Positions 14,667-63,966 are shown, counted from the stretch's first letter. The stretch: DNA of 64,000 nt from Candidatus Coprovivens sp. (GCA_051892935.1 JBJFGS010000025.1:80813-144812); one strand, 5' to 3'. The notes: generated by a model not told the origin, from the letters alone. Made by a program: numbers and translations.

Positions 14667-14697
14667 AAGAACTATTTTTTAGTTCTTTTATTTTTTT
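14667..14697. terminator. Bidirectional hairpin terminator
   Basis: aagaact-atttttt-agttctt flanked by T runs on both strands. It overlaps the stop of the 14688-15311 gene. Confidence 0.65.
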
Positions 14698-15311
14698 ACC
14701 AAACAAGTAACTGCTTCTCTATCTTTTGTCTCACTATTAACATAATAGCAAGTACATAAATTTTCCCTGCAGCTACCACAATCAACAGCAGTAGCACATT
14801 TCGTTAATCTAATTTTCTCGCTATTTTGAGGGCTAACTGAACCAGGGTTATTAACAACTTTTTCTAAACCTGCAACTTTAGTTGCTCCTTGCTTATTTAA
14901 ATTAGTATATGAACTAGGAATAATTATAGTAAAGCCATCATCGCACTTAGTTTCATACAAATTAGTAAGTTTTTCGTTAAGTACTTTAAATTCAGCCAAT
15001 TGAGCGATACATGAATTTAAATTTATATTATCACAATAATATTTATTATCTAAGTAAGTAAACCAACTACCAACTATATCCAAACTATAATTCTGTATTT
15101 CTTTTCTTTTAGCATCTTCTTTTTTATATTCCTCAAGTAATTCTATTACAGGTTCTAGTTCACTTACACTTCCACTAACATAATACTTAGTCAAACTATT
15201 CGTAACAATCTCCGTATAATCTGAAGTTTTAAAATCAATAATTTTTTTACCTCCAAAAATAATTCCTACAATCAATAATATTATTAGTATAATAGGTAAA
15301 GCCTTTTTCAT
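14688..15311 (-). CDS. Membrane-anchored protein with Cys-rich C-terminus
   Basis: N-terminal TM ALPIILIILLIVGIIFGG. C-terminus reads CATAVDCGSCRENLCTCYY. Its ATG overlaps the Xer stop (ATGA). Confidence 0.7.
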   Translation of the reverse strand: MKKALPIILIILLIVGIIFGGKKIIDFKTSDYTEIVTNSLTKYYVSGSVSELEPVIELLEEYKKEDAKRKEIQNYSLDIVGSWFTYLDNKYYCDNINLNSCIAQLAEFKVLNEKLTNLYETKCDDGFTIIIPSSYTNLNKQGATKVAGLEKVVNNPGSVSPQNSEKIRLTKCATAVDCGSCRENLCTCYYVNSETKDREAVTCLVKK

Positions 15312-16210: not shown

Positions 16211-16289
16211 ATTACCACCCTACTATTAAAATTATATAAAATTTCTCATAAAAAGTAAATTACTAAAAAAGATAATCTTTCGATTACCT

Positions 16290-22813: not shown

Positions 22814-22870
22814 AACCAACACCTCTTTTATTATATACAACTATATCTTAACACAAAACAAAAATAAATT

Positions 22871-22901
22871 AAATAAAAAAGAACTATTTTTCCTAGTTCT
22901 T
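22871..22901 (-). terminator. Rho-independent terminator
   Basis: On the minus strand: aagaacta-ggaaaaa-tagttctt followed by tttt. It overlaps the stop of the 609-aa gene. Confidence 0.65.
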
Positions 22902-24722
22902 TAATTTAACTTTATCATTCTGTATAATAGAATTTCTAAATATAGAATTCCTTATTTTATTAATATATTGACCATATAAATCAGGATTGAATTCCTTAAT
23001 AACATTTACAGCTCTATCAAACCTCAAACTATTAATGCCACTAACATTTAAATAATGAGTTTTACTTATGTAATCACCATTTATAAACTCTCTTATTATA
23101 AAAGAATGATGTTTTAACATTAATTCATCAACATACTGACGTCTAATTAATATACTACACGCTAACTCATCATATAATTTCTTTTGAACTAATAACACAT
23201 CACTTTTCAAAGAAGGATACAAAATATTTAAAGAAGCACACATATATTTAAAATCATCTAAACTAAAATTCTCTTCCTGATACATTAGTAAAGAACCATT
23301 ATCAGAAATAACATTAATCATTTCCTTTATATGTATTAACCCATAAGAAGCAAAATATTGATTAAATACACCATCTAAATAGTTTTTCCATTCTTTTATA
23401 GAAATGTATTTATAACCAACCATTTTTCTAATAAATTCCAAATATGCTTTATGAATAATATCTCTATTATGAATATCTGCATATATATCTTTTTTCCATT
23501 CAAGTAAAATTAAATCAAAAGTATTCTTCTTTACTTCATCACTATCAAAGAATATATTTCTACCAAAATACTTTTTATCCCTAGAATAAAACCACTTAAC
23601 AACATCATAAAAAGTATCTTGATATTCTTCACTAACATTTAAATAAATAAAATAATTTATAGTTACAGAAATAGGTCTTTTCAACTCTTCAAGTAAATAA
23701 TCATAATTACTTAATACATACTCTTTCTTTCGATTATAATTATCAAAAGAAAGAGCAAATTCATTTACTTCTCCTTTCCATTCTTCTCCCTTTATACTTA
23801 AACTTTTAGATTTACCTAAATATTCACGAAAACAATCAAAATTACAAAAAGAATCTCTATCATTATTTAAAATAATATATAATAATTCCCTGTTCAATAA
23901 AGAATATTTAGAATAATAAAAAGAACTAAAATTACTGCCAACAGTACTATTATAAAACTCTATAAACTCATCTAAAGTAAAATATAAATGACTACTAGTA
24001 TATTCTTTATAAGTAAGTAAAACACTCTTTCTTAAAACATCTCTATCAAAACTATTATCAATAATTAACATTATATTTTTAAATAATAAAGATAAATTTG
24101 ATACATCAAATAATCTAATATTTTCATAATCCTTAATAAAGAAAGAAATATCATCGAAAGTAATACCAAGTAATCTAAAATTATTAAGTAAAAACTTAAT
24201 ATCATAACAGCACATAAAAGAAACAGCTTTTTTCTTTCTTAAAACATTCTCCTTCTCATTATAAATATCTAAAAAACAATTATATAAATCATATATAGTT
24301 AAACATTTATTTAAAGCACTATAAGAAATAATATCATCATTAATAACATTTTCTATTAAAGAAGAAGAAAAAAGCTTTAAAACGCCTTTAAATACATCAA
24401 TATTACTAGATTGTAATAAATAATAAATAATAATATTTCTAACATCAAAATCTAAACAAACTTCATCCATTTCATAAAGTATCAATTCTCTACTACAAGT
24501 AAAATCAAGTAATTCAAAATCATCCATAAAATGATCAGAATAACAAAGTAATAAATCATTAATATCATCACTAGAAAAACTATCTTTACTCAATATATTC
24601 CTAAGTAATACTACTTCATCACTCTCTCCATATAAAAAATAAAGATTACTAAAAGCTCTTTTCTTCAACAATATAATCTTTTTAAAAACATATTCACTTA
24701 AAAAAGACTTTATATCATTCAT
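22893..24722 (-). CDS. Large protein of unknown function, paralog A (609 aa)
   Basis: RBS aggagg. Shares blocks with the 767-aa neighbour: DDINDLLLCYSDH, LGITFDDI, YLLEELKRPI...YFIYLNV, KKYFGRNIF. Confidence 0.8.
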   Translation of the reverse strand: MNDIKSFLSEYVFKKIILLKKRAFSNLYFLYGESDEVVLLRNILSKDSFSSDDINDLLLCYSDHFMDDFELLDFTCSRELILYEMDEVCLDFDVRNIIIYYLLQSSNIDVFKGVLKLFSSSLIENVINDDIISYSALNKCLTIYDLYNCFLDIYNEKENVLRKKKAVSFMCCYDIKFLLNNFRLLGITFDDISFFIKDYENIRLFDVSNLSLLFKNIMLIIDNSFDRDVLRKSVLLTYKEYTSSHLYFTLDEFIEFYNSTVGSNFSSFYYSKYSLLNRELLYIILNNDRDSFCNFDCFREYLGKSKSLSIKGEEWKGEVNEFALSFDNYNRKKEYVLSNYDYLLEELKRPISVTINYFIYLNVSEEYQDTFYDVVKWFYSRDKKYFGRNIFFDSDEVKKNTFDLILLEWKKDIYADIHNRDIIHKAYLEFIRKMVGYKYISIKEWKNYLDGVFNQYFASYGLIHIKEMINVISDNGSLLMYQEENFSLDDFKYMCASLNILYPSLKSDVLLVQKKLYDELACSILIRRQYVDELMLKHHSFIIREFINGDYISKTHYLNVSGINSLRFDRAVNVIKEFNPDLYGQYINKIRNSIFRNSIIQNDKVKLKN

Positions 24723-24771
24723 ATATCTCCTCCTAAAGTCAAATTAATATAACAAAAAAGTATATTAAAGT

Positions 24772-24802
24772 AAATAAAAAGAATTAGAAAAATCTAATTC
24801 TT
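24772..24802 (-). terminator. Rho-independent terminator
   Basis: On the minus strand: aagaattag-attttt-ctaattctt followed by a T-rich run, directly after the stop of the 767-aa gene. Confidence 0.6.
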
Positions 24803-27052
24803 TTACTTTTTACCAACATGTTTAACACCATCTAATTCATCTAAATATTCTTTAGTAATCTCTCCCTTTAAAACTTTATTCAAAGCTCCTTTATACAAAG
24901 AATAATAATTAGATAATCCTTTAATCCTTAAAAACCTTAAAGCAAGCTCTTTTTCTTCAAGACTAACTTCATGCATAATATCATCAATTTTAATAATAAG
25001 TCTTTCATTAAATATCTCTTGATTAGTAACTAGTCTACTAGATTTAACCATTTTTTCAAAACTTCTAAATTGTCTAATATTAATACTATTCAACTTTTTA
25101 GAATTAACTACTAAAACAGTAAATTTATCAAAAGGCAAATTAGTTAACAAACAATAATCTAAAAAAGTAAAAGGTCTAACTATACCATTATCATTTACAC
25201 CTTCAACTAAAGCTTTTAAAACATAATCAACCATTTTCATAAGTACAGCATATCTTTGAGATTTTAACATATCAAACTTATTAATAAACTGAATGTATAA
25301 ATTATAATCATTCTCCATAACATTATTCAAAATCTTATCAAATTGAGTTTCACTAAGTCCTTCTTCTTCCAAAAAAGCTTCTTTACTTTTGTAATCCTTA
25401 TTTAAAAATCTTTCTAAAAGGATAGAACACTTTCTTGCTTCTTCCATTTTTTTATCAAGGTTTCTCAAATCTAAAACTCTATTCTTATCATTTGTATATA
25501 CATCATATAAAATAACTAATTTATTTTCCAATTCAGGATGTTTACTCTTAAACGCATCAAAACAAAGATCGAAATCATCAACTAAACCAATTTCTTCAGC
25601 TTTTAAATATATATTATCCACTTGATTGACTAATGACAAAAGTATCATCATTCTATCATAACCAATTCTATAATAGTAATCCTTTTCCAATAGTTTCATT
25701 TGATTATTCCAAGAACTTTTAGAAATATATCTTTTACCTAAAAATTTACATACAATATCATAGTATTCTTTATATATAGCATTACGATTAACAAAATCTA
25801 AAGTAATCTTTTCTCTACAATTATCCAAAATATCTTTATAAGTATTTTGTTGTTCTTCGACACTAGATTTTAAAACATTTCTTCCGAAGTATTCATAATC
25901 ATTCTCACAAATCCAAGAAACTATTTCTTTAAAAAAAACAATATCTTCAACATTAACATTTAATAAAACAAAATAATCAAAAGTAAATCTAATAGGTTTC
26001 TTTAATTCTTCTAATAAATATGAATATTCTTTTAGAACTCTTTCTTTATTATGATAGTTTTTAACATCTAATTTACACCAATAATCGATAAATGATTTAT
26101 ACCTATTAGTATCGCTTAAAAAAGAACTATGTTTACTAAAAATATCGTATATACCAGAAGAGCCTTGAACCATAAATCTAAAACTAATGCTTTTCATTAT
26201 TGTATAAAACAAATCTACTGACAATAAAACAGGACCATCACTATTTATATAAAAAGAACTAAAATCATCTTTAAAAGTATCATTATAATAAGAAATAAAA
26301 TCTTCATCTAAGAAATTAATATGTAATTTAGAATACTTATCGTATTCACTAATTACTTTATTATATAATTTTTCATCACCCAAAGTTCTATGTTTAATAC
26401 TAAATTGATTATTAAGTATTCTCCGACATTCTTTTTCATTTAATGATATATTCTTTTGATCAGCCAAAGAAAAAAAGTCATCAATATCATCAAAAGTAAT
26501 ACCTATTTTTTTAAATTTATCTGAAAAGAAAGAGTAATCAATTAATCCCATTAAAGCAATAACTTTCATCTTTTTTTCTTCTATATTAGAAATATTACAT
26601 ATATCATTAACTAAAATATATAAGTCATATAAAGACTCACCAATATGCAAATCAACAACACTCTCAATAGAATCACTTCTTTTAAAGAAACAATCATAAG
26701 GAATACATTGTAAAACCCTTAAATTAAAGTCAAAATCCTTTATACTTAATAAATAATATAAAATTAAATTAGTAATATTAAAAGTAGTCCCAAATTGTTC
26801 AAAATCATAGTATAATTCCTTATTATTTAATACTAATTCCAATATTTCTTCATTACTTAATAAATGATCAGAATAACAAAGTAATAAATCATTAATATCA
26901 TCTAATGAATAAACACTCTTACCTATTATATCTTTATAAGTATTATAATCCTCATTACTATCAAAATAATAATATTTTTTCAAATCTTTCTGAGTAGCAA
27001 TTTTAGCACAAAAAGAAATACGCAAACGTTGTATGATTTCTTCAAAATCCAT
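24803..27052 (-). CDS. Large protein of unknown function, paralog B (~749 aa)
   Basis: Start set at the ATG at 27052 (MDFEEIIQRL) after taggtga. Paralogous to 22893-24722, with a ~150-aa C-terminal extension. Confidence 0.8.
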   Translation of the reverse strand: MDFEEIIQRLRISFCAKIATQKDLKKYYYFDSNEDYNTYKDIIGKSVYSLDDINDLLLCYSDHLLSNEEILELVLNNKELYYDFEQFGTTFNITNLILYYLLSIKDFDFNLRVLQCIPYDCFFKRSDSIESVVDLHIGESLYDLYILVNDICNISNIEEKKMKVIALMGLIDYSFFSDKFKKIGITFDDIDDFFSLADQKNISLNEKECRRILNNQFSIKHRTLGDEKLYNKVISEYDKYSKLHINFLDEDFISYYNDTFKDDFSSFYINSDGPVLLSVDLFYTIMKSISFRFMVQGSSGIYDIFSKHSSFLSDTNRYKSFIDYWCKLDVKNYHNKERVLKEYSYLLEELKKPIRFTFDYFVLLNVNVEDIVFFKEIVSWICENDYEYFGRNVLKSSVEEQQNTYKDILDNCREKITLDFVNRNAIYKEYYDIVCKFLGKRYISKSSWNNQMKLLEKDYYYRIGYDRMMILLSLVNQVDNIYLKAEEIGLVDDFDLCFDAFKSKHPELENKLVILYDVYTNDKNRVLDLRNLDKKMEEARKCSILLERFLNKDYKSKEAFLEEEGLSETQFDKILNNVMENDYNLYIQFINKFDMLKSQRYAVLMKMVDYVLKALVEGVNDNGIVRPFTFLDYCLLTNLPFDKFTVLVVNSKKLNSINIRQFRSFEKMVKSSRLVTNQEIFNERLIIKIDDIMHEVSLEEKELALRFLRIKGLSNYYSLYKGALNKVLKGEITKEYLDELDGVKHVGKK

Positions 27053-27125
27053 AAAATCATCACCTATCATTGTATAAATGATAACATAACAAAACATTCC
27101 GTGCAAATTAAAAAAGATTTATATT

Positions 27126-27929
27126 TTAAATCTTTTTTAAATTTTTACTATTAATAAAATTTAAATGTTTCAAATAATGAAATTTACTTCTATAGATAAT
27201 GCCAGTATCAGAATCCTTAATAGCACCAAAATCATCAATATATTCATCATCACTCTTAGTTACTAAAGTAGGATCAAAAACTTTTATTTTTTCTTCTTGA
27301 ATATCTAATCCCCAATTTTCAAAAGTTATATTAGCAAGTTGTTGTTCCAAAGGAACATAATTAGGATTATCAACTATTTTATAGCACCCATTACTCATAT
27401 AAATAGATTCCATATCAACAATAGCATATTTACTTGGAACATCTTGCATAACAAATCTATCTGCTATACTAATAAGTTCACTTTGTGCAGAGAGCCCCTT
27501 ACCTTTTACAGATATATTAATACATCCTTCATGATAATGATAACAAGAATACTCTCTTTTAATTTGTTCAAGTATTTCTTTATTTTCATCAGATAAGCAA
27601 TCAATCTCTAATTCAATCCAAGCATCCTTATCTATACTATCACTACACATAAAAGTATAAATATTCTTACTCCATAATATTTGGCAAGCTGGAACACATT
27701 CTTCAATTATCCATCTACGAGGTTCTACCTCTACCATTTCTTGTGAAACTCGTGGAGCACCTTCATATTGTTTATTATTAGCAAGCTTTTTCCCACTAAT
27801 AACAGCTGCTGTATCATTTAATTTAGAAGATAACCTTCTATACAATATAGAAACCTTTAACTTAGCTTTATCAAGTATAGTTGCTTTTCTCCCTAATCTT
27901 TCATCTAATAACATTTCATCTAAATTCAT
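27126..27929 (-). CDS. Hypothetical protein (267 aa), Cys-containing
   Basis: RBS aagggga. Contains EECVPACQILW and CYHYHEGC. No family recognised. Confidence 0.7.
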   Translation of the reverse strand: MNLDEMLLDERLGRKATILDKAKLKVSILYRRLSSKLNDTAAVISGKKLANNKQYEGAPRVSQEMVEVEPRRWIIEECVPACQILWSKNIYTFMCSDSIDKDAWIELEIDCLSDENKEILEQIKREYSCYHYHEGCINISVKGKGLSAQSELISIADRFVMQDVPSKYAIVDMESIYMSNGCYKIVDNPNYVPLEQQLANITFENWGLDIQEEKIKVFDPTLVTKSDDEYIDDFGAIKDSDTGIIYRSKFHYLKHLNFINSKNLKKI

Positions 27930-52074: not shown

Positions 52075-53850
52075 CTATTCTTTATTATATTTACTATCCA
52101 AGTATTCTTTTAATTCGATAGCTACATTAGTTGGTAATATTTCCTCTACTTCTTGAAGTGTTGCTTCTCTCATTTTCGCTATACTACCAAATTTTTTTAT
52201 TAATTGTTTCTTTCTAACAGGCCCAATCCCTTCAATATCATCTAAAACACTACTTATACTGCCTTTACTTCTAAGTGTTCTATGATAATTTATAGTGAAT
52301 CTATGTACTTCATCTTGCATTCTTGTCAAATAATGAAATACGTTACTCATTCTATCTATATTAATAACACTTAAATCAGAAGAAATCAAGTCATTAGTTC
52401 TATGTTTATCATTCTTTTTTAAACCAACAACCATTATATTAAGATGTAAAAGTTCTAATATTTCTTTTGCAGCTCTAATTTGATTCTCTCCTCCATCTAC
52501 AATAATCAACTCTGGAAGACTTGTTTTATCAACTAAAGCTCTCTGATACCTTCTATATAATATTTCCTTCATCGTATTATAATCATCATTTACATCAACT
52601 GAAACTTTATATTTACGATATTCATTTTTAGCAGGCTTACCATCAATAAATACTACCATACCAGAAACAGCAAAACTACCAAAAAGATTTGAATTATCAA
52701 AAACATCAATTCTATAAATAGAATCCAAACCTAATATCTTAGCTAATTCATCATTAGCTTTACTAGTCATAACTTCATCTTTTTTTATTTCTTCAAATCT
52801 ATTATTCAAATTAAGCTTAGCATTATCAAAAGCCATCTCTAATAAATCTTTTTTAACACCTTTCTGCGGAATAATAAAGTTAGTATTAACTACAGATTTT
52901 AAATTTTCTATATTTAATGAATCAGGAATTAAAATTTCTTTTGGGATCTCATTTCTACTATAAAATTTAGCAATATAATACTCAATATCATCATTAATAT
53001 CTAAATTAATTGGAAATATTTCATTCTTATGATTTAATAACTTACCATTTCTAATAAATAATATTTCAATAGATAAATAACCATTATCAACAAAATAAGA
53101 AATAACATCTCTATTAACAAAATCATGCAATTCGACTTTTTGTTTATCTAAAACAATATCAATATACTCTAATTCTTTCTTTAAATCCAAAGCCATTTCA
53201 AAGTTTAAATTTTCACTATACTTAGTAATTTTATCCATAATCTTATTTCTAAGTATTTCATCATTACCTCTTAAAAAAGATAGTATTTCATTTTCCATAT
53301 CAACTATTTTATCTTTATCTATTTTATTACTACAATAACCTAAACATTCACCAATATGATAATATAAACATACTTCTTTAGGATTACCTTCGCACTTTTT
53401 TAGAGGATATAATCTATTAAGCAAGTTTACTATTCTTCTAGCAGCATAAGCATTAGGATATGGACCAAATAGTTTTTTTCCATCTTTCTTCCTAATATTT
53501 AGATATCTTGATACTTTAAGTTTAGGATATGGATCACTAATATACTCAATATAAGGATAACTCTTATCATCAGTAAGCATAATATTATACTTAGGATTAA
53601 ATTCCTTAATTAAATTAATTTCTATTATAAATGCTTCAAGTTCAGAAGAAGCTACAATATATTGAAAGTCCTCAATTAAACTAACCATTTTCGCCGTTTT
53701 ACCAGTATGAACCCTATTAAAATAAGAAGAAAGTCTTTTATTCAAATCTTTAGCTTTTCCAACATAAATAATATTCCCATTCTTATCTTTCATTTGATAA
53801 GAACCAGGTTTATGAGGTACTAAAGCTAATTTATCTTTAAATTTCATCAT
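52075..53850 (-). CDS. uvrC: Excinuclease ABC subunit C
   Basis: GIY-YIG PGSYQMKDKNGNIIYVGKAKDLNKRLSSYF; UvrBC-interacting region; C-terminal HhH IEGIGPVRKKQLIKKFGS. Confidence 0.95.
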   Translation of the reverse strand: MMKFKDKLALVPHKPGSYQMKDKNGNIIYVGKAKDLNKRLSSYFNRVHTGKTAKMVSLIEDFQYIVASSELEAFIIEINLIKEFNPKYNIMLTDDKSYPYIEYISDPYPKLKVSRYLNIRKKDGKKLFGPYPNAYAARRIVNLLNRLYPLKKCEGNPKEVCLYYHIGECLGYCSNKIDKDKIVDMENEILSFLRGNDEILRNKIMDKITKYSENLNFEMALDLKKELEYIDIVLDKQKVELHDFVNRDVISYFVDNGYLSIEILFIRNGKLLNHKNEIFPINLDINDDIEYYIAKFYSRNEIPKEILIPDSLNIENLKSVVNTNFIIPQKGVKKDLLEMAFDNAKLNLNNRFEEIKKDEVMTSKANDELAKILGLDSIYRIDVFDNSNLFGSFAVSGMVVFIDGKPAKNEYRKYKVSVDVNDDYNTMKEILYRRYQRALVDKTSLPELIIVDGGENQIRAAKEILELLHLNIMVVGLKKNDKHRTNDLISSDLSVINIDRMSNVFHYLTRMQDEVHRFTINYHRTLRSKGSISSVLDDIEGIGPVRKKQLIKKFGSIAKMREATLQEVEEILPTNVAIELKEYLDSKYNKE

Positions 53851-54310
53851 CTACCTCCTTATTTAACAAATAATTATAAAGAGCTAAACACCCTTCATTA
53901 ATTTCATTATAAGCAGTATCAAAATCTCCACTATACCACGGATCATCTATATCTTTATTACTACCAGTAAATTCCAATAATAAATGAATTTTATTATCAA
54001 CATCAGGTCCAACTATTTGTATAACATCTCTTTTATTTCTCTGTTCCATTACAATAATATAATTATATAAATTATAATCTTCTCTTTTTATTTGAGTAGC
54101 CTTATGACTTTCACAAGTAACTCCCTCACTAACAAGTTTTTGTCTTGCTTGAGGATACATTTCATGACCAAGTTCTTCTATACTAGTAGCTCTTGATGCA
54201 CAAGTAAACATATAACGTTTACTATTCTTATATATAAGATCTTTAAAAATCATTTCAGCCATAGGACTTCTACAAATATTTCCATAGCATACAAACAGAA
54301 TGTTATACAT
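53837..54310 (-). CDS. Low-molecular-weight protein-tyrosine phosphatase
   Basis: ILFVCYGNICRSPMAE (C-X5-R-S P-loop) and the DPWY Asp loop; 157 aa. Confidence 0.9.
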   Translation of the reverse strand: MYNILFVCYGNICRSPMAEMIFKDLIYKNSKRYMFTCASRATSIEELGHEMYPQARQKLVSEGVTCESHKATQIKREDYNLYNYIIVMEQRNKRDVIQIVGPDVDNKIHLLLEFTGSNKDIDDPWYSGDFDTAYNEINEGCLALYNYLLNKEVDDEI

Positions 54311-54361: not shown

Positions 54362-54577
54362 CTATCTTTTTTTGGCTTTTTTCTTTTCATCAGAAGTGGT
54401 ATAAGAAGTTACGTTACTATGAACCATTTCTGCAAAAAGAGAGTTTGATATTACTTCATTCATATCTTCACCATCCAAAAGCGAATCAACAAATTGTAAT
54501 TCATCATTTTCATCATACCTTTTAACAATTTTCAATCCTTCTTTTAAAGAAATCAACTTTTCTTTTTCATTACTCAT
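54362..54577 (-). CDS. Small protein (71 aa) coupled to the giant ORF
   Basis: Its ATG overlaps the giant ORF's TGA (ATGA). Acidic body with a KKKAKKR tail. Confidence 0.6.
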   Translation of the reverse strand: MSNEKEKLISLKEGLKIVKRYDENDELQFVDSLLDGEDMNEVISNSLFAEMVHSNVTSYTTSDEKKKAKKR

Positions 54578-57500
54578 AATGTAACTCCTCCACTCTTTTT
54601 AAGATTCTCTAATTCTAAAACATACTCTTCCATCTTAATAATAGCATCATTTCTTCTTTTCAAAATCAACTCTAATACTTGATCAGCTTTATCTTTACCT
54701 AAAGAAACGGCATATTTTCTAAATAAATCCTTATAATCATCATCACTTAAAAGTTTAACTTTATTTATTGTATCAGTAATAACAGATAAATCAAGATCTA
54801 TTTCTCCGTTCCTATACCTAGTAAATAATATTTGATAAATAGGAATACGATGATTACCATTAGGAGTAAAAGAATAATCTGCATTCAATGTTCTATCATC
54901 ACTTATAAACCTAAACGATTGTTCTTTGTCAATTCCTCTCAAATTATTTGAACTATCTATAATAAAATTTCCAACATAACAATCAAAATTACATAGTAAA
55001 AAGTCAATAACATATTCTCTTAGCAAAGCAGAAGAATAACAATAATCTAACTCTCCACCTTTATTAACCCAATCCTTAAGTACATCAGAATTATCCTCAC
55101 TTATCTCCACTAATTCTTGTTTAGAAAATCTCAATTTACCCCCAATACTCTCAACTCTTACTGAAGTACCAGGAGATAAAAATTCTTGTAATTTAGAAGC
55201 CGCTTCTTGAATATCAGCTCTAAAAGGTTGTAAAGCATAGTTATTTTTATCTACTGCTGGTTTTAGTAAGAAACTATCATCATCAATATCATATCTATAC
55301 ATAATTCCAGACTCTCCCAAATTAGCAGTTTCAAGAGCTACAATTTCTTCTTTAGACATTCCTCTTAAAACAGTTAAAGTTTTTCTAAAAAGACCAATAC
55401 GAGTCAATTCTTTTTTACAGTCAGGTAAATCAACTATTATTTGACAAACAATGCTTTCCATCTCGTATAAAGATTTACACAAATAATCAAAAGATATTTC
55501 ACTATTACGATACTTATCATTCAAAATAGTTAAACAATAATCTACTTTTTCTTTTATACTAACATTTGGATTATTCTCTTGTATCCCATCAAAGAATATA
55601 GAATACATCAACGAATAATTAGGACTAATTTTAAAATCAGCTTTAGCTTTCTTTAAATCTTCCACTTTCTTAGTATCATAAGCATAAACATCAAATTTAA
55701 TAATTGGAACATCAACTCCAAGAAAATCACTAAAATACTTAGCAGCCCTAATTGTAGCCTCATTTGGTACATCACCAACACAAGCCAAAGCACAAGGAAG
55801 CATACCTTCTCTAAAACCAGCTACTTCATTATAAGAACAATGCTTATAACAACTACACTGATTAAGAGCATTCAAATTTGTAAAAGCATTAATATTAGCA
55901 GTTGGTTCAATCTTATAACCACCATGCTCAACAAATAAATCTCTACCATTCATAAAAAGCATAAAACTCTTAGGTAAACTATTAAACAAATAAACAACAC
56001 CATTATTATCTCTATTATTTATAAACCAAAATCCTTTATCGGAAATACTAGATGTAGATAATGTCGAAGCTCCTTCTAACTTAGTCCATAAAGAAGGATC
56101 ATTAATTAACATCTCCTTAAAACCAGACATATTAGTATCATAAGAATAAATCCTATGGACTAAAAAATTAAACTTTTCAGAATTCATTTCAATAATAGTA
56201 ACACCATAAGGATTATTAGGATCACCCTTATCAATACGTTTACTTTTCAAATCCTCAATATTAGTAAGTCTTCCATTAAATTGATAATTATGTAACAATC
56301 TAATCTTAGCAATAATATTTCTCACTTCATCACAATAATCTAAAACTCCTGCATTGTCATTTATAAGTTTAGTCATTAAATCTTTTAATTCATTGATATT
56401 TTGAGATTCTATAATTCTACTCATTAATGTAATAATAGCTACATCTTTCTTATTGTAAAAACATTCTTTAAATATTTGATTAGCTCTTTCCAAACCATAA
56501 CATTCTATAATATCTTCTCGTAAAGTTTTTAGATTTAAATAATTATTTAATTGGAAATTATTAAAATCTTTTGCTAAAGAAGCGATATCAGCATATCCAA
56601 ATAAAGTAGCTAAAACATTCTTAATTTCAGCAATATTATTCGAATTTAATTTAATCATCCAAAAATCTTGTGTTTTCTTTTCATATTGTTTAAGTTCATC
56701 ATATGTTTTAATATCATACAAATTATTGCCTATAATAACTTTTCTAAGATTAGAAATATCAATTTCACTTAATTCATAATTTGAATTACAAATATCAATT
56801 ATTAACTCTTTATACTTATCAAAATTCCTAAAAGCATAATGAACTCTTTTATCATCATTATCAAACAAATTATAACGACAAACAATATCATAATAACTAC
56901 TAAGTAAATTAGCATTATTAGCTTTTATTTCTTTAGATATCACTGAAACAGCAGGTGTATTATATTTAATAACATCAAGTACAAATTCAAGACCAAATAA
57001 CGGATAAATATATTTAACAACATCATAATTAAAAACAGGATTCTTTTCTAAAGTATTTAATTTACCATTAGATTTTAAAATAAATAAAGCATTCTTAAAA
57101 ACAATTTGTAAATCACTATCAAATATTTCAAGATCAATAAATGGTAAAACTGTTACAATCTTTCTGAAAGTAAAACCATTTTCATTAGTCAAATCACTAT
57201 CGTAAGAATTAATAGCATTTGCAAAAACACTTCTAATAACATTATCATTTTTATCTATTAATCTAAAATCCTTCAAATTACTAAGTAAAAAATCAGCAAC
57301 GAAAAAACAATTATTCTTATTATTAATATCAAAATTTGAAAAATGAATAATCTTCAAAACTTTAGAAACCGATAATAAATGTCTATCAATAGTCGAAAAA
57401 TCATCTATATAAGCAAAAGTACGTTCATTCAAAAATTCCAGAGGAAGTTGAAATAAAATTGAAGGAGCAGTTTTTAAAGCAGCCACAACCATTTCCTCAT

Positions 57501-60500
57501 CTATTTCAATTAAAGAAGAAATTCTAGTTAAATAATAACCATTAATAGACAAAGCCTTTAAAACTAATTCCCTATATCTTTCCATAGTATTAGGAAATAG
57601 AAATATTAAATCAGAATTATAATCAAGAACAGTAAAACATAAATCAAAATCTTTCTTTAAAAAATCAGGTAAATAATTATAAACACAACCATTTTTATAT
57701 TCAACCAGCTTTAAAGCAGTCTCTTTATCATTTATCAAATTAGGTATAAAAGTAAATACAATAGGATATTCTAACAAATGATCTTTTGCATACCTAACAA
57801 TAATATCTAAAGAATGATTCGCATATGCAAAAGTACTTTCATCAAGTTTCATAGCATAATCAAGAATATCAATATCATCTTTAAAAGTATCACTTAAGTA
57901 AAAATAAACGCTTGAAGCGGAATCCTTTTTCATTAGTTTAAATATAATTTCTTTATTATTTAAAATAGAAGGAACATACTTATATAAAGAAGGATAATCA
58001 TCTATAATATTTGTAACACTATTAATAATATCTTGATCATTACAATCAACATATTTAATATAAAACAAAGGATCATCTAAAAAATACTTCTTAGCCATAT
58101 CATATTTTTTTTGAATAAATATTTCCAAATCAGTAAAATTATTAGCAAACCACTCTACTACATATTTTTTATCAGAACAAGAATTAAGTATATCATCTAT
58201 AATCGTTAAAGATTCTTTTTCTTTAGGTAATTCATTCAACCTCAATAAAACAGTAAAGTTTTCTTTACTTGAATAGTCAAAATTATAATACAACGAAGCA
58301 TCAATTCCAAAAGAATTAAGAAATTCCTTAAAAGGTCCATCAATATACCAATTATTTCTAAAAAAAATTGTAAAATCATAAATAAAATCATATTTATTCT
58401 CACTATAAATTTCAGAAAGTATATCCTTAAGTAATAAATATAAAGAATCATCAACTTCATTAATTAAATCTTTTCCTATCTGTAATAAAGATTGTATTCC
58501 TAGATTTTTAAGTATTTCCCTATCAACCTCAACGCCATTTTTTAAAGCAACTGAAACAGTATGTGAAGAAGATTTAAAAGAAAAATTATACCCACTCTTA
58601 AAAGCTAATAAAACATAATCATCATCTACATAGCCATGATAATAATCTAAAACACTAGGATAAAAAGAAACAATTTCCTTTACCACTTCAGAATTTAAAT
58701 ATCGAGCATCAATATAACTAAGTATTAAAGGATTTTCCTTTATAAGTTCAACAACTGAATTAGAACTCATATCATAATAAAATAACTTACTACATAATTC
58801 AGGTTGTTCTCTAGCAATAATCTTTAATAAATTAATATCTCTTCTCTGTTCAACATTTAACAATTTTATAATATCAGGATTTTTTCTAACAAACGAAGCC
58901 AAAGAATGATAATTATTTACAATATCAGAAAAAAAGATAATATATCTAGAGTCAGAATCAATTCTACTTCGTAAATACATTAACTCATCATCTGAAAAAC
59001 TGATTTTCTTAATAAAAGAATTAAAATATTTATTAGTAAGAATCTGTTCTTCAGGAAAATAGCCACCTAATAAAGCTTTTTTCAAAACATCTTCTTCAAT
59101 TCTGTCATAATAATATGATATAAAATCATAAAATCCCATTATAACCATTTTTCTTATAAGAAAAATTTTAGTATCAGTATTTATAGAATAAGAATTAATA
59201 ATTTCACGTATCTTATCAACACTTAAATATTTTAACAATTTAGTAAGTAAAACTTTATTATTTATAGTACTAGAAGACAAATCAACATAATTAAAAAGAA
59301 CATATTCATTTTCATCAATTTCATCAAGAAGTACTTTATCACTAACACCAATAATCTTTTGCATTTTTACAATACTATTCTTATTAAAACCAGTTCTATA
59401 CATTTTTAAAATAATACTAGAACTATCATAAATATAAAGACTAGAATTACTCTCAGATAATTTTACAAATAGATTAACAAGTTCTTGTTCATATTCAATT
59501 TTAATAAATCTACTAATAACTAAAGCATTCATAACAGGATGCTTTTTAAACATTTCAAAATTATATCCTGATTCAAATAAAAAATCGATATCTTCATCAG
59601 AAAAATTATTAATTACATCAAGTATTTCAAATCTATTATTTAAAATGTATTTTCTCATCAATAATGAATTAAAAATCGCCGAAGAACATAAATCCTTTGA
59701 ATCAGGTAAATAACCATTCAATAAACTATAATATAAATCAACTGCTTCCTTACAATCATTCCCATAAAAATGCAAATACTTAATTCCTCTATCATCACCT
59801 TTTTTTAAAAGAAATACAACTGAATCAAGAGATAAATCTGTAAAATCATTAATATATGGAAGAATATCATCAAAAGAAATACCGCTTAAAATAGCTTTTT
59901 CAATAACAGAACGAGTAGGATTATTCTTTAATAAATCCATCAAATAACTAGAATCATACTCAATAAATTTTTCTTTTAATATTGGAATATTCTGAACAAC
60001 TAATGGCAAAGAAATATATTTTTCATATGAAATATCTTTTAAACCTATTTTTTCTAAATCAAAATCACTTAAATACAAATTTTCAGTAGCTAATACATCG
60101 TAATGGCCTTCATTAACAAACTTATATATAATATCTTTAGACAAATCACATTTACCATATTTAGAAATAGCTTCTTCATACATACTATATGTAATATAAT
60201 CCAAATAACTATTAACTAAATTTTTATCGTTTGAATAAAGTAAAGGCAAATACATTCCCTTTTGTACAAACGCCTCAATGAAAACATTTTTATTAGTATT
60301 ACGAGAAAGATTAATAGCAAAATCATCCACTGTAAGACCATTATCAATAAGTTCTAAAGCAACAGGTAAAGAAATAGAAAAGCTACTATAAGAACGATAT
60401 TTATCCCAATCACGAGAAACAACACAATATAAAAAATTAATTTCCTCAGAATTCCTATAATCATCTTTTAACTGATATATACCACTTTTAACAAGTTCTA

Positions 60501-61569
60501 AAACATAATTAAAACAATTAATATCAGTCAATACCGAAGTCAAACCACCTATTAATGAATAATCATTATTTACTACAAAATATCTAGCAAGAGGAAAAGA
60601 ATCTAAAATATTAGTAAAAGAGTTAATTCTTTCTAAAGAAATATTATTATTTTGAATAAAGTTTATAACATCCTCATTAACAGCTTCTTTAGAAGCATAC
60701 ATTAAAGCATCAATTTTACCATCCTGTAAAAGATTTAATAATAAAGGAGAACTTTTTTTATAAGACCCATCATATAAAGAATAATCATAAAAAGAAAAGT
60801 CAGAATAATTAACTAAATCAGCAGAAGGATTAGAAGCTAAAACTAAAGCTTTACTACCTCCTATATCAATAAATCTTTTTACAATATTTTCATCATTCAA
60901 AATTGAAATATCATGATCATTCATATACATAGTAATTATATATTCAAAAAAAGCCTTAAAATCAAAATCACATTTAGATAATTCAATTAATAAATTAGAA
61001 AAATCAGCTTTAAAATTATTAGAATATCTAAAATATTTTCCCAAATATTTATAATTGTTATTGGAAATCATTAAAGCTGCAAGCTTAGGACTAATACTAT
61101 AAGAATGTTCAACTAACAAATCGACTTTATCAGGATAAAGAATATATATATCATATTGAAAACTACCTAAAATCTCAAATTTTTTCAAAATATCATCTAT
61201 AGAAACACCATTATTCAAATAATAATTTAAGTCATTTAAATCAAAAATAGCTCCATGAACATCAGTATATTCCTTATCACGATAAAAGTAATCTAATAAA
61301 GAATAATAAAACTCATCCGAAATGAAAAGTTTAGAATAAAATAAGTTATCAAGCCCATTATCAAAATCTAATTCACTAATAAATTCTTCATCACCAATAT
61401 ATTTATCAACAAATAAGAAATAATCATTATGAATTTTATCTCTAAGAGTATTCAATATATAATCAATATCTCTTTCTAAATAATCAGTATCAATATTATA
61501 TTTTTTAAATATTTCAAGCAAGGAATCTTCCTCTAACAATTTCAAAAATTTAATAACATCTTCGTGCAT
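54574..61569 (-). CDS. Giant repeat protein (2331 aa) with C-terminal kinase-like domain
   Basis: Uninterrupted 6996-nt ORF. TGcTATAAT extended -10 and RBS aggtg upstream. No signal peptide or TM seen. Helical repeats, including DUF4116-like ~26-aa units. C-terminal K/E/D-x4-N/D landmarks. Confidence 0.85.
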   Translation of the reverse strand: MHEDVIKFLKLLEEDSLLEIFKKYNIDTDYLERDIDYILNTLRDKIHNDYFLFVDKYIGDEEFISELDFDNGLDNLFYSKLFISDEFYYSLLDYFYRDKEYTDVHGAIFDLNDLNYYLNNGVSIDDILKKFEILGSFQYDIYILYPDKVDLLVEHSYSISPKLAALMISNNNYKYLGKYFRYSNNFKADFSNLLIELSKCDFDFKAFFEYIITMYMNDHDISILNDENIVKRFIDIGGSKALVLASNPSADLVNYSDFSFYDYSLYDGSYKKSSPLLLNLLQDGKIDALMYASKEAVNEDVINFIQNNNISLERINSFTNILDSFPLARYFVVNNDYSLIGGLTSVLTDINCFNYVLELVKSGIYQLKDDYRNSEEINFLYCVVSRDWDKYRSYSSFSISLPVALELIDNGLTVDDFAINLSRNTNKNVFIEAFVQKGMYLPLLYSNDKNLVNSYLDYITYSMYEEAISKYGKCDLSKDIIYKFVNEGHYDVLATENLYLSDFDLEKIGLKDISYEKYISLPLVVQNIPILKEKFIEYDSSYLMDLLKNNPTRSVIEKAILSGISFDDILPYINDFTDLSLDSVVFLLKKGDDRGIKYLHFYGNDCKEAVDLYYSLLNGYLPDSKDLCSSAIFNSLLMRKYILNNRFEILDVINNFSDEDIDFLFESGYNFEMFKKHPVMNALVISRFIKIEYEQELVNLFVKLSESNSSLYIYDSSSIILKMYRTGFNKNSIVKMQKIIGVSDKVLLDEIDENEYVLFNYVDLSSSTINNKVLLTKLLKYLSVDKIREIINSYSINTDTKIFLIRKMVIMGFYDFISYYYDRIEEDVLKKALLGGYFPEEQILTNKYFNSFIKKISFSDDELMYLRSRIDSDSRYIIFFSDIVNNYHSLASFVRKNPDIIKLLNVEQRRDINLLKIIAREQPELCSKLFYYDMSSNSVVELIKENPLILSYIDARYLNSEVVKEIVSFYPSVLDYYHGYVDDDYVLLAFKSGYNFSFKSSSHTVSVALKNGVEVDREILKNLGIQSLLQIGKDLINEVDDSLYLLLKDILSEIYSENKYDFIYDFTIFFRNNWYIDGPFKEFLNSFGIDASLYYNFDYSSKENFTVLLRLNELPKEKESLTIIDDILNSCSDKKYVVEWFANNFTDLEIFIQKKYDMAKKYFLDDPLFYIKYVDCNDQDIINSVTNIIDDYPSLYKYVPSILNNKEIIFKLMKKDSASSVYFYLSDTFKDDIDILDYAMKLDESTFAYANHSLDIIVRYAKDHLLEYPIVFTFIPNLINDKETALKLVEYKNGCVYNYLPDFLKKDFDLCFTVLDYNSDLIFLFPNTMERYRELVLKALSINGYYLTRISSLIEIDEEMVVAALKTAPSILFQLPLEFLNERTFAYIDDFSTIDRHLLSVSKVLKIIHFSNFDINNKNNCFFVADFLLSNLKDFRLIDKNDNVIRSVFANAINSYDSDLTNENGFTFRKIVTVLPFIDLEIFDSDLQIVFKNALFILKSNGKLNTLEKNPVFNYDVVKYIYPLFGLEFVLDVIKYNTPAVSVISKEIKANNANLLSSYYDIVCRYNLFDNDDKRVHYAFRNFDKYKELIIDICNSNYELSEIDISNLRKVIIGNNLYDIKTYDELKQYEKKTQDFWMIKLNSNNIAEIKNVLATLFGYADIASLAKDFNNFQLNNYLNLKTLREDIIECYGLERANQIFKECFYNKKDVAIITLMSRIIESQNINELKDLMTKLINDNAGVLDYCDEVRNIIAKIRLLHNYQFNGRLTNIEDLKSKRIDKGDPNNPYGVTIIEMNSEKFNFLVHRIYSYDTNMSGFKEMLINDPSLWTKLEGASTLSTSSISDKGFWFINNRDNNGVVYLFNSLPKSFMLFMNGRDLFVEHGGYKIEPTANINAFTNLNALNQCSCYKHCSYNEVAGFREGMLPCALACVGDVPNEATIRAAKYFSDFLGVDVPIIKFDVYAYDTKKVEDLKKAKADFKISPNYSLMYSIFFDGIQENNPNVSIKEKVDYCLTILNDKYRNSEISFDYLCKSLYEMESIVCQIIVDLPDCKKELTRIGLFRKTLTVLRGMSKEEIVALETANLGESGIMYRYDIDDDSFLLKPAVDKNNYALQPFRADIQEAASKLQEFLSPGTSVRVESIGGKLRFSKQELVEISEDNSDVLKDWVNKGGELDYCYSSALLREYVIDFLLCNFDCYVGNFIIDSSNNLRGIDKEQSFRFISDDRTLNADYSFTPNGNHRIPIYQILFTRYRNGEIDLDLSVITDTINKVKLLSDDDYKDLFRKYAVSLGKDKADQVLELILKRRNDAIIKMEEYVLELENLKKSGGVTL

Positions 61570-62748: not shown

Positions 62749-63966
62749 ATGGCAAAAACTATAAGAATCGCTGGAAAAAATTTTAACGCAAATTTCTTTT
62801 ATACTTACATGAGAAAAAACTTTGGTGAATCATTTGCACACAGTAGTCTTTCATTTGAAAAAGAATTCGAAGAAAGTAAAAAACTAGCTCAAAGGCTAAG
62901 TGAATTCATGTCTCAAAGTAATTGTGCTTATGCTACTAAATTAGAAAATGGTTCTAAAGAAGATTTAGAATTATTAAAAACAAGATACAGTGAAATAGCT
63001 ACAGTATTAGAAAAAATATATTCTGTACCAAAAGAAAGATATATCCTAGACGAAGATGAAGAAGATTATTCACTATGTATCGATGATTTCATACCATATT
63101 TTAAAGGAGCTGTAAGACCTTATCGTAATAAATACGAAATAGAACAAGCTCGCCTAGCAGGCAAATTAACTGATGCTCCATACGAAAATGAATCTCTAAT
63201 CGATAAAGTAAAAGAATTAGCAGACCTAGTAAGTTTAAAAGTTGCTGCTGATAAAAAAGCATATAATTTAAAAAAAGGAAATAACGAAGCATATGCTTAC
63301 GCTTTAGGTTTAAAATCAATAGGTATTCCGGAAATAATTGAAATAAATGCAAAAGTAAATAAAAATTCAGGAATTCATACTGGATTCAAAACAACAGACA
63401 ACGACATAATAAACGCTCCATTCAAGACATGTCCTAAAGAATTAGTTCCAATAAAAATGCAAGAGCTACTTCATAATTATAATTATGTTTGGGCGCAAGG
63501 CATCCCTCCATTTACTGAAGGTGTCGATGACGAAAAACAAAAAATTGCTCATTTAAGAGCTGTTTGTGATAGAGAAGCAAAATTCCATATTGCATTCGAA
63601 AGAATACATCCATTTGAAGATGGTAATGGTCGTACAGGAAGAATAATTCTAAACGCTCATTTAGTCGCAAACGAACTAGCTCCTGTTTTAATTACTCCAG
63701 AAATGCGTGAATTCTATATAGAATGTATAGATACAGACAACTATCAAGCTTTAAGTCAGCATATAATGTCAATATCAAGTGTATGCTTAACAGAAATGGT
63801 TTCACAATATCGTAGAACAAAAGGTATAGATCCAGATGAATTAAGAATTTCCGATGTTCAACAAAAAGGTCATCATACAGCAGTCAAAGTATACATACCT
63901 GAAACACAACAAGAAAAAACTGCTCAAGGCGACGAGGATGTTAAAATATATCGAATAAAAAGATAA
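62749..63966 (+). CDS. Fic-domain protein
   Basis: Canonical Fic motif HPFEDGNGRTGR (H-x-F-x-[DE]-G-N-G-R-x-x-R) near the C-terminus of a 405-aa ORF. The N-terminal ~280 aa were not recognised. Confidence 0.9.
   Translation: MAKTIRIAGKNFNANFFYTYMRKNFGESFAHSSLSFEKEFEESKKLAQRLSEFMSQSNCAYATKLENGSKEDLELLKTRYSEIATVLEKIYSVPKERYILDEDEEDYSLCIDDFIPYFKGAVRPYRNKYEIEQARLAGKLTDAPYENESLIDKVKELADLVSLKVAADKKAYNLKKGNNEAYAYALGLKSIGIPEIIEINAKVNKNSGIHTGFKTTDNDIINAPFKTCPKELVPIKMQELLHNYNYVWAQGIPPFTEGVDDEKQKIAHLRAVCDREAKFHIAFERIHPFEDGNGRTGRIILNAHLVANELAPVLITPEMREFYIECIDTDNYQALSQHIMSISSVCLTEMVSQYRRTKGIDPDELRISDVQQKGHHTAVKVYIPETQQEKTAQGDEDVKIYRIKR

What the first reader, a model, noticed from the sequence alone, without database searches (positions are those of the whole stretch)
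57400..58100. DUF4116-like ~26-aa repeats in the giant protein, plus a G-[ILV]-[ST]-x-D-D-[IF] motif shared with the two HerA-adjacent paralogs
Residues ~1180-1360 read as tandem units: NNKEIIFKLMKKDSASSVYFYLSDTF / KDDIDILDYAMKLDESTFAYANHSL / INDKETALKLVEYKNGCVYNYLPDFL / KKDFDLCFTVLDYNSDLIFLFPNTM / ERYRELVLKALSINGYYLTRISSLI / EIDEEMVVAALKTAPSILFQLPLEFL. This resembles the DUF4116 repeat pattern as I remember it. Separately, the giant protein contains NGVSIDDI (from residue 121), SGISFDDI and NGLTVDDF. The paralogs at 22893-24722 and 24803-27052 contain LGITFDDI and IGITFDDI. The three largest unknown proteins in the window may therefore share a repeat module and belong to one lineage-expanded family.
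Basis: partly seen in the sequence, partly recalled or inferred. Interest (0 to 1): 0.5.

Follow-up and report, generated by a model that had tools for sequence, protein, structure and literature searches.

The report
DUF4116 solenoid repeats; shared motif unsupported
The flagged stretch does encode DUF4116 helical repeats inside a 2,331-residue protein, which NCBI already labels that way, but the seven-residue motif it shares with two other large proteins is best read as a generic helix-start signal, not evidence of a common family.

Summary
The six ~25-residue units are at aa 1204-1380 of the 2,331-aa ORF (window 57430-57960), and Pfam DUF4116 matches at E = 7.9e-20. Two more divergent units extend the array to aa 1179-1380. 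AlphaFold models each unit as a helix-turn-helix inside a ~1,200-residue all-helical solenoid. NCBI already names this protein "DUF4116 domain-containing protein".

The G-[ILV]-[ST]-x-D-D-[IF] motif is also present at all five stated sites. The idea that the giant protein and the two HerA-adjacent paralogs form one family is not supported:
- BLASTP gives E = 0.18 and 0.6.
- Whole-profile hhalign gives 1.2% probability; the best motif-centred comparison gives 12%.
- The paralogs have no DUF4116 signal.
- The strict motif is lost in most orthologues of both families.
- After correcting for the search space, the word match has p of about 0.08.

In the model the motif lies at a helix junction: Gly ends one helix, Ser/Thr caps the next, with a hydrophobic staple and an acidic capping box.

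Outside the finding, the conserved C-terminal third holds an unknown domain and an unannotated kinase-like domain resembling PI3K, PI4K, HipA and CtkA. That domain also occurs in mycobacteriophage capsid-associated effector proteins.

The parts
54574..61569 (-). Giant ORF, 2,331 aa, soluble, with no predicted transmembrane segment. Identical to the NCBI protein 'MAG: DUF4116 domain-containing protein [Candidatus Coprovivens sp.]'.
   Evidence: Ten full-length orthologues at 42-57% identity. Same gene neighbourhood in L002 and L003.
57430..58035 (-). DUF4116 repeat array, aa 1179-1380.
   Evidence: Pfam PF13475 at E = 7.9e-20. Fragment hits at aa 1187-1217, 1281-1327 and 1333-1379. hhalign internal repeat at 97.6% with a 76-aa period. 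Unit HMM. AF2 helix pairs. Coordinates checked.
58630..58932 (-). Second, weak DUF4116-like stretch, aa 880-980.
   Evidence: Pfam 18.9 bits, E = 0.0012, below the cut-off on its own. hhalign of aa 860-946 against aa 1179-1264 gives 55-72%.
57130..60717 (-). Modelled part of the N-terminal alpha-solenoid, aa 285-1480: 104 short helices and no strands.
   Evidence: AF2 mean pLDDT 84.5. Foldseek against PDB returns only generic solenoids (SKI3, FANCI, importins, mTOR HEAT region) at TM about 0.1.
61189..61209 (-). Motif copy 1, GVSIDDI, aa 121-127.
   Evidence: Orthologues read K-G-[IVF]-[SD]-[LIF]-x-[DT]-[IV]. This site was not modelled.
60319..60339 (-). Motif copy 2, GLTVDDF, aa 411-417. It lies at a helix junction: Gly follows a 9-residue helix and Thr is the N-cap of the next helix.
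59863..59883 (-). Motif copy 3, GISFDDI, aa 563-569, with the same helix-junction geometry.
24147..24167 (-). GITFDDI in paralog P1 (ORF 22893-24722, 609 aa), aa 186-192.
   Evidence: Not conserved in the family.
26483..26503 (-). GITFDDI in paralog P2 (ORF 24803-27052, 749 aa from the ATG), aa 184-190. This is the position homologous to the P1 site.
55690..56232 (-). Most conserved part of the giant protein, aa 1780-1960: a domain of unknown fold with invariant His, Gly, three Ser, Asp, Glu and Arg.
   Evidence: 78.5% mean identity to orthologues, against 42-46% in the solenoid. Alignment A7. No Pfam or PDB match. AF2 pLDDT below 50 here.
54595..55335 (-). C-terminal atypical kinase-like domain, aa 2079-2325, with a Gly-rich loop, KPA Lys, NFDxxxGNF and IDKEQSF motifs.

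Best explanation
Window 57400-58100 encodes the core of a DUF4116 repeat array. It has eight helix-turn-helix units of about 25 residues (aa 1179-1380) stacked as part of a long all-helical solenoid. That solenoid makes up roughly the first 1,480 residues of a 2,331-residue soluble protein.

The solenoid evolves fast (42-46% identity among orthologues). It most likely acts as a scaffold or binding arm for the far more conserved C-terminal third. That third carries an unknown domain (aa ~1780-1960) and an atypical kinase-like domain resembling PI3K, PI4K, HipA and CtkA (aa ~2079-2325), with a complete Lys / Asp-x4-Asn / Asp set.

The heptapeptide G-[ILV]-[ST]-x-D-D-[IF] is a local helix-junction signal. 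Gly terminates one helix and the hydrophobic residue before the cap pairs with the one at N4 (a hydrophobic staple). Ser/Thr is the N-cap and the second Asp is the N3 capping-box residue. It recurs in a protein built from about 200 short helices, and it occurs once, by convergence, in the ancestor of the two HerA-adjacent paralogs. Those paralogs are related to each other but not detectably to the giant protein.

Shown here: the DUF4116 match, the repeat units, the helical model, the local geometry of two motif sites, and the lack of profile similarity. Inferred: the scaffold role, kinase activity, and the capping role at giant site 121 and in the paralogs.
For: - DUF4116: Pfam E = 7.9e-20, per-fragment hits, internal repeat at 97.6%, unit HMM well above decoys.
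- NCBI already uses the DUF4116 label for this exact sequence.
- DUF4116 was predicted to be an alpha-solenoid by trRosetta in PMC8078820. The AF2 model of aa 285-1480 has pLDDT 84.5 and is all-helical, with each unit a helix pair. Its only fold matches are solenoids.
- Motif geometry: sites 411 and 563 both read 9-residue helix, 4-residue turn x-G-h-[S/T], then a 7-8-residue helix.
- No relation to the paralogs.
- Motif drift in orthologues.
- Empirical base rate: the relaxed motif occurs 8.1 times per 100,000 aa in 160,223 aa of other real proteins, so a ~680-aa protein carries one about 5% of the time.
- Look-elsewhere tests on the word match give p = 0.13 and p = 0.075.
- C-terminal domains.
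Against: - The strict motif is far more frequent in this giant protein than any independent-position model predicts: 3 observed against 0.003 expected. My own rough estimate from the frequencies is still only about 0.005 when conditioned on helix starts. Capping alone therefore does not explain three near-identical copies, and an ancient internal duplication may contribute.
- GITFDDI is the single best-matching 7-mer to the giant protein among about 16,500 words from all window proteins. None of the 15,127 words from other proteins reaches its score.
- The paralog-184 against giant-563 profile alignment is in register over 39 columns at 12% probability. A very distant shared helix-hairpin cannot be excluded.
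- The paralogs and giant site 121 were not modelled.
Confidence: 0.75

Rival explanations
1. One reading: the giant N-terminal half and the two HerA-adjacent paralogs share a repeat module marked by G-[ILV]-[ST]-x-D-D-[IF] and descend from one lineage-expanded family.
For: The motif occurs only in these three proteins in the window, 5 times against 0.017 expected. GITFDDI is the top-ranked 7-mer against the giant protein. The in-register hhalign of the paralog-184 window against the giant-563 window gives 12.4% probability, E = 0.0024 for that single pair. Both families are restricted to the same small clade and co-occur in one metagenome at equal coverage.
Against: BLASTP E = 0.18 and 0.6. 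Whole-profile hhalign gives 1.2%. Single-site profiles do not find the other sites above shuffled decoys. An unrelated giant window scores as well as the 563 window. The second weak match is not collinear with the first. The paralogs have no DUF4116 signal. The motif is not conserved in orthologues of either family. Family-wise p is 0.075-0.13. Only a tandem pair is found per genome, with no expansion.
Confidence: 0.08
2. The three motif copies inside the giant protein are relics of an ancient internal duplication of a helix-hairpin or three-helix module in the N-terminal solenoid. They are true repeats within the giant protein but unrelated to the paralogs.
For: Three copies against 0.003 expected. 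Each site is conserved in position across orthologues at 42-57% identity. The 33 site blocks align in one pattern over about 23 residues: N-capped helix, Gly, h-[ST]-h-x-D-h helix. The secondary-structure pattern is identical at sites 411 and 563. Weak off-diagonal hhalign signals appear in the N-terminal half, for example aa 243-307 against aa 546-611 at 17.8%.
Against: Profiles of one site do not detect the others, scoring at most 1.7 bits and inside the decoy range. Motif-centred hhalign between giant sites gives at most 0.7% and is not in register. In most orthologues the sites have different residue preferences, and only this genome's protein has all three in the strict form.
Confidence: 0.3
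3. The apparent repeats are a by-product of the extreme AT-rich composition (about 25% G+C, so proteins rich in L, I, D, N, K, S and Y) and are not real.
For: G+C content is 23-30% across the window. The giant protein is 12% L, 9% I, 9% D and 8% N.
Against: Composition-matched shuffles of the whole window proteome never approach the unit scores: the decoy threshold is about 6 bits against 12.5-26 bits for the units. The Pfam E-value is 7.9e-20. The units are conserved in orthologues and are modelled as regular helix pairs at pLDDT 85-90.
Confidence: 0.02

Closest known systems
Pfam DUF4116 (PF13475) repeat proteins
   Same: Significant HMM match in several tandem stretches. Units of about 25 residues (the Pfam model spans two units). 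All-helical solenoid, as predicted for the family in PMC8078820.
   Different: The array is a small part (about 200 of 2,331 aa) of a protein whose conserved, probably catalytic, domains lie elsewhere. More distant relatives that share the C-terminal 850 aa have no DUF4116 hit. The family itself has no known function.
Helix N-capping box with hydrophobic staple, a general protein structural motif (named in GST studies cited in PMC9959719; the positional definition used here is from my own knowledge)
   Same: Hydrophobic at N', Ser/Thr at N-cap, acidic at N3 and hydrophobic at N4, preceded by a Gly that ends the previous helix. This is exactly the register seen at sites 411 and 563 of the model.
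   Different: It is a local folding signal, not a homology marker. It does not by itself explain why three copies are so alike in this one protein.
Solenoid-plus-PI3K-like-kinase proteins (PI3K, Vps34, mTOR and other PIKKs) and small atypical kinases (PI4K-II alpha, CotH, CtkA, HipA/HipT)
   Different: No Pfam kinase model reaches its threshold: the best is E = 0.005 in 3 of 17 family members. There is no PDB sequence match. Fold scores are modest and activity is untested. The resemblance in architecture is an analogy, not shown descent.
Capsid-associated multi-domain effector proteins of mycobacteriophages (Onyinye gp16; prophiFSQJ01-1 gp54, annotated 'minor capsid and ADP-ribosyltransferase domain fusion protein') and Phage_Mu_F fusion proteins
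   Same: They carry the same kinase-like domain (profile E = 8e-24 and 2e-28) as an unannotated internal module.
   Different: Those proteins are phage-borne and also carry a C-terminal ADPrib_exo_Tox domain. The giant protein is a chromosomal gene in conserved housekeeping synteny, and its central domain does not match their ADP-ribosyltransferase domain.

Membership tests
DUF4116 (PF13475) | Match to the Pfam HMM above the gathering score | tested here: met
   70.6 bits against a cut-off of 24.9, E = 7.9e-20, in 5 stretches. Three fragments each score 34-36 bits on their own.
DUF4116 (PF13475) | Tandem repetition of the unit | tested here: met
   Six units score 12.5-26 bits against an iterated unit HMM. 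hhalign off-diagonal match at 97.6%.
DUF4116 (PF13475) | Alpha-solenoid fold (predicted for the family, with no solved structure) | tested here: met
   In the AF2 model at pLDDT 84.5, each unit is a helix pair. The family prediction is in PMC8078820.
   BLASTP E = 0.18 and 0.6. hhalign 1.2% for whole profiles and at most 12.4% for motif-centred windows.
   No Pfam hit in P1 or P2. Unit HMM scores -0.4 bits. The three-site motif profile scores the paralog sites at 4.5 and 3.2 bits, within the decoy range.
   Paralog-family consensus is [GN]-I-x-[FY]-x-D-[IV]. The strict motif is in 2 of 7 paralog-family proteins. Among the 11 giant orthologues it occurs 4 times, 3 of them in this genome's protein.
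Helix N-capping box with hydrophobic staple | Ser/Thr at N-cap, acidic residue at N3, hydrophobic residues at N' and N4 | tested here: met
   DSSP of the AF2 model at sites 411 and 563. Giant site 121 and the paralog sites were not modelled.
PI3K/PI4K and HipA-like atypical kinases (protein-kinase-like fold) | Catalytic signature: Gly-rich loop, beta3 Lys, D-x4-N catalytic loop, metal-binding Asp | tested here: met
   K34, D127, N132 and D145 are invariant in a 17-sequence alignment at 27-50% identity. The assignment of their roles is by inspection.
PI3K/PI4K and HipA-like atypical kinases (protein-kinase-like fold) | Match to the Pfam PI3_PI4_kinase or HipA_C model above threshold | tested here: not met
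   Best E = 0.0051 (PI3_PI4_kinase) and 0.054 (HipA_C), each in 3 of 17 members; none in the window protein. HipA_C at E = 0.0021 in phage Onyinye gp16.
PI3K/PI4K and HipA-like atypical kinases (protein-kinase-like fold) | Fold similarity to solved kinases | tested here: inconclusive
PI3K/PI4K and HipA-like atypical kinases (protein-kinase-like fold) | Phosphotransfer activity | not testable with these tools
   Needs biochemistry.
Known HerA-containing anti-phage systems (for the paralog operon) | Partner proteins match a catalogued defence-system model | tested here: not met
   PADLOC hits only HerA (PDLC04102, 367 bits). P1, P2 and the 267-aa protein have none, and none in PHROGs.

The most novel reading that the evidence does not exclude
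The giant protein is the founding long form of an unannotated family of atypical kinases. It combines a fast-evolving DUF4116-containing solenoid arm, a highly conserved domain of unknown fold, and a kinase domain resembling PI3K, PI4K, HipA and CtkA. The kinase domain is also deployed as an internal module of phage capsid-packaged effector proteins and in HD-domain fusions. In this small-genome gut Bacilli lineage the protein is a vertically inherited core gene. It is followed by a translationally coupled 71-aa ORF and a low-molecular-weight phosphotyrosine phosphatase, which suggests a dedicated kinase/phosphatase signalling or self-defence module. In layout it would be a bacterial analogue of solenoid-plus-PI3K-like kinases.
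Probability: 0.4. Interest if true: 0.55.

Novelty: already known. Interest (0 to 1): 0.25.

Why it matters
As submitted, the finding adds little. The DUF4116 repeats are real but already annotated, and the proposed link between the three large unknown proteins is not supported.

Its value is mostly cautionary. In an AT-rich genome, a short motif that combines a Gly helix stop, a hydrophobic staple and a capping box can look like a family signature without being one.

The follow-up did expose something worth a separate look. The conserved end of this 2,331-residue protein carries a kinase-like domain absent from Pfam. A profile of that 852-aa end matched 854 clusters in a 1.84-billion-protein library, and many of the best matches align only to the kinase-like domain, including phage capsid-associated effector proteins. 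Next to it is a still more conserved domain with no detectable relatives of known structure.

Tried and rejected
- hhalign in single-input self-comparison mode returned no hits, so I replaced it with an 80-residue window scan.
- PDB sequence searches found nothing useful for the whole giant profile, the paralog profile, the kinase-like profile, the central-domain profile or the 267-aa neighbour. The dPPR hits cover only a helical tail.
- NCBIfam, PADLOC and PHROGs gave no hit for the giant protein or the paralogs.
- A viral-contig scan with the kinase-like alignment confirmed no locus. tblastn against annotated phages did find relatives.
- From motif recall (H...STxS...NE[VI]) I considered that the central domain might be an ADP-ribosyltransferase. 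It has no Pfam or PDB support and does not match the phage ADP-ribosyltransferase-bearing proteins, so I dropped the idea.
- I considered that the phage 'ADP-ribosyltransferase' labels might apply to the kinase-like domain. I rejected this because Pfam places ADPrib_exo_Tox at the far C-terminus of those proteins, separate from the match.
- I considered a secreted or polymorphic toxin and a mobile-element origin for the giant gene. Neither is favoured: there is no hydrophobic segment, and the housekeeping synteny is conserved across genomes at 46-54% protein identity.
- I rejected a compositional artefact for the repeats on the basis of the shuffled-proteome decoys.


Full report
**What is at the coordinates.** The window is very AT-rich (23-30% G+C). 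Its largest ORF runs from 54574 to 61569 on the minus strand and encodes 2,331 aa. The protein is identical to an NCBI entry named [quoted passage not shown]. It has ten full-length orthologues at 42-57% identity. Candidatus Coprovivens is an uncultured genus of Bacilli.

**Are the repeats real?** Yes.
- Pfam DUF4116 (PF13475) matches at E = 7.9e-20 and 70.6 bits against a cut-off of 24.9, in five stretches.
- Separate fragments place strong matches at aa 1187-1217, 1281-1327 and 1333-1379, and a weak one at aa 941-977.
- An 80-residue hhalign scan of the orthologue alignment against itself finds aa 1171-1240 similar to aa 1247-1315 at 97.6% probability. It also finds a weaker link from aa 860-946 to the array.
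Fifty shuffled copies of the window proteome set a threshold near 6 bits, and the best other window protein reaches 4.7 bits.
The array therefore has eight units, aa 1179-1380, window 57430-58035.

**Structure of the repeat region.** An AlphaFold2 model of aa 285-1480 (nine-sequence alignment) has mean pLDDT 84.5 and is entirely helical, with 104 short helices. Each DUF4116 unit is a helix of about 10 residues followed by one of about 5. Foldseek against the PDB returns only large generic solenoids such as SKI3, FANCI, importins and the mTOR HEAT region, at TM about 0.1. This agrees with the alpha-solenoid predicted for DUF4116 in PMC8078820. The array is thus one segment of a roughly 1,480-residue solenoid.

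**The motif is present as described.** G[ILV][ST]xDD[IF] is at giant aa 121, 411 and 563, at P1 aa 186 and at P2 aa 184. It is absent from the other 15,385 aa of ORFs in the window, where composition predicts 0.017 occurrences overall. P1 and P2 are true paralogs (30% identity, E = 2e-62), and their motif sits at homologous positions, so it counts as one event.

**Does the motif mark a shared family?** Every test beyond the heptapeptide is negative.
- BLASTP of the giant protein against P1 and P2 gives E = 0.18 and 0.6.
- hhalign of the 7-sequence paralog profile against the 11-sequence giant profile gives 1.2% probability.
- A profile built from the three giant sites across orthologues scores the paralog sites at 4.5 and 3.2 bits, inside the decoy range.
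- Single-site profiles fail to find the other sites.
- Motif-centred 91-residue hhalign gives 12.4% (paralog against giant 563, in register over 39 columns), 3.4% and 1.1%. The unrelated giant window aa 1-91 scores as high. The three giant sites do not align with one another (at most 0.7%). The only other weak paralog-giant match is out of order with the first.
- The paralogs have no DUF4116 signal.

**The motif is not conserved in either family.** Paralog orthologues read [GN]-I-x-[FY]-x-D-[IV]. Each giant site has its own residue preferences across orthologues. The strict motif occurs in only 2 of 7 paralog-family proteins. Among the 11 giant orthologues it occurs 4 times, 3 of them in this genome's protein.

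**Statistics with the search space included.**
- For shuffled giant sequences, some P1 7-mer has three BLOSUM matches of score 24 or more in 13% of trials.
- With a sharper statistic (the sum of the top three word scores), GITFDDI scores 83. None of 15,127 words from other window proteins reaches that, but shuffles give a family-wise P of 0.075.
- The paralog match is suggestive at best and has no supporting flanks.

**What the motif is.** In the model, sites 411 and 563 have the same geometry: a 9-residue helix, a 4-residue turn x-G-h-[S/T], then a 7-8-residue helix. The Ser/Thr is the last non-helical residue (the N-cap), the second Asp is N3, and the flanking hydrophobic residues are N' and N4. 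This is the classic capping box plus hydrophobic staple, preceded by a helix-terminating Gly. The positional definition comes from general knowledge; the terms are used in the GST literature cited in PMC9959719. N-capping is pervasive in this solenoid, with S/T/D/N at 74% of N-caps against a 29% background.

This reading does not fully explain three near-identical copies in one protein (3 observed, 0.003 expected). An old internal duplication remains a live, non-exclusive alternative, which I put at about 0.3.

**No lineage expansion.** The protein database of about 5.8 billion sequences holds 11 giant-type and 7 paralog-type proteins. A scan of 185,579 species genomes found one paralog locus. 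In each genome seen, the paralogs form one tandem pair inside a conserved four-gene operon: a 267-275-aa unknown protein, the P2 type, the P1 type, and HerA. The operon sits between gatCAB and thiF/gpsA/mgsA. PADLOC recognises only the HerA.

**The rest of the giant protein.** This part lies outside the finding. Conservation rises from 42-46% in the solenoid to 78.5% at aa 1780-1960 and 67% at aa 2079-2325.
- An exhaustive HMMER search with the last 852 aa found 854 cluster representatives at E <= 1e-3. Many of the best 150 hits, in proteins of 107 to 3,065 aa, align only to the last ~245 residues. Some of these are fused to Phage_Mu_F and Rho_N, or to HD domains.
- The domain alignment keeps an invariant Lys (KPA), an Asp and Asn (NFDxHxxNF) and an Asp (G[VI]DKEQ[SA]F), plus a Gly-rich loop.
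- The AlphaFold model of this part is moderate (pLDDT 65.7).
- Nearly all of its top 50 Foldseek hits are PI3K, Vps34, CtkA or HipT kinases (best E = 0.012, probability up to 0.99).
- Pfam gives only sub-threshold PI3_PI4_kinase and HipA_C hits.
- The same domain forms an unannotated internal module of large mycobacteriophage capsid-associated proteins. Their "ADP-ribosyltransferase" label comes from a separate C-terminal ADPrib_exo_Tox domain.
- The central domain (aa 1780-1960) has no Pfam or PDB relative and was modelled poorly.

**Genomic setting of the giant gene.** It has no hydrophobic segment. It lies in the same housekeeping neighbourhood in three genomes. That neighbourhood comprises a nitroreductase, an Impact_N gene, the giant gene, a 70-73-aa ORF (overlapping the giant gene's stop by 4 nt in the window), an LMW phosphatase, uvrC, rnf genes and queA.

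**Verdict.** The DUF4116 interpretation is correct, but it is already in the public annotation. The shared-module, single-family interpretation is not supported. The motif is best explained as a helix-junction signal, possibly amplified within the giant protein by old internal duplication. The most interesting material is the unannotated kinase-like domain and the unknown conserved domain at the C-terminus, which deserve their own evaluation.

Noticed in passing
window 54595-55335 (-), giant aa 2079-2325: Unannotated atypical kinase-like domain with an invariant Lys / D-x4-N / D set. Its fold hits are to PI3K, PI4K-II, CotH, CtkA and HipT. The 852-aa C-terminal profile matched 854 library clusters at E <= 1e-3, many through this domain alone. 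It also occurs inside mycobacteriophage capsid-associated ADP-ribosyltransferase fusion proteins, Phage_Mu_F fusions and HD-domain fusions.
   Followed up: partly
window 55690-56232 (-), giant aa 1780-1960: The most conserved segment of the giant protein (78.5% identity among orthologues). It has invariant His, three Ser, Asp, Glu and Arg across distant relatives and no Pfam or PDB match. AlphaFold confidence is below 50.
   Followed up: partly
window 54362-54577 (-) and 53837-54310 (-): A 71-aa ORF overlaps the giant gene's stop codon by 4 nt. It is followed by a low-molecular-weight phosphotyrosine phosphatase and then uvrC. The order (giant gene, 70-73-aa ORF, LMWPc) is conserved in two other genomes, so a kinase-like protein sits next to a phosphatase.
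   Followed up: partly
window 20807-27929 (-); L001 9081-16259; L004 5104-12261: A four-gene operon (267-aa unknown, P2, P1, HerA-type ATPase) is conserved at the same chromosomal site, between gatCAB and thiF/gpsA/mgsA, in three genomes. HerA matches anti-phage HerA models (PADLOC 367 bits). The three partner proteins match nothing in Pfam, PADLOC, PHROGs or the PDB.
   Followed up: partly
window 58630-58932 (-), giant aa 880-980: A second, degenerate DUF4116-like stretch lies upstream of the main array. Pfam scores it at 18.9 bits and hhalign links it to the array at 55-72%.
   Followed up: yes
window 62749-63966 (+): A Fic/DOC-family protein is encoded upstream of the giant gene, beyond the nitroreductase and Impact_N genes. 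It is present at the same place in L003 but is replaced by a 935-aa unknown protein in L002.
   Followed up: no
window 14688-17336 (-): A tyrosine recombinase (Phage_integrase with an N-terminal SAM-like domain, 15308-16210) is flanked by two ORFs with no Pfam or PADLOC match (14688-15311 and 16290-17336).
   Followed up: no
window 27052-27106 (-): The mechanical ORF for P2 starts at a TTG at 27106 (767 aa). The NCBI protein and its orthologues start at the ATG at 27052 (749 aa).
   Followed up: yes
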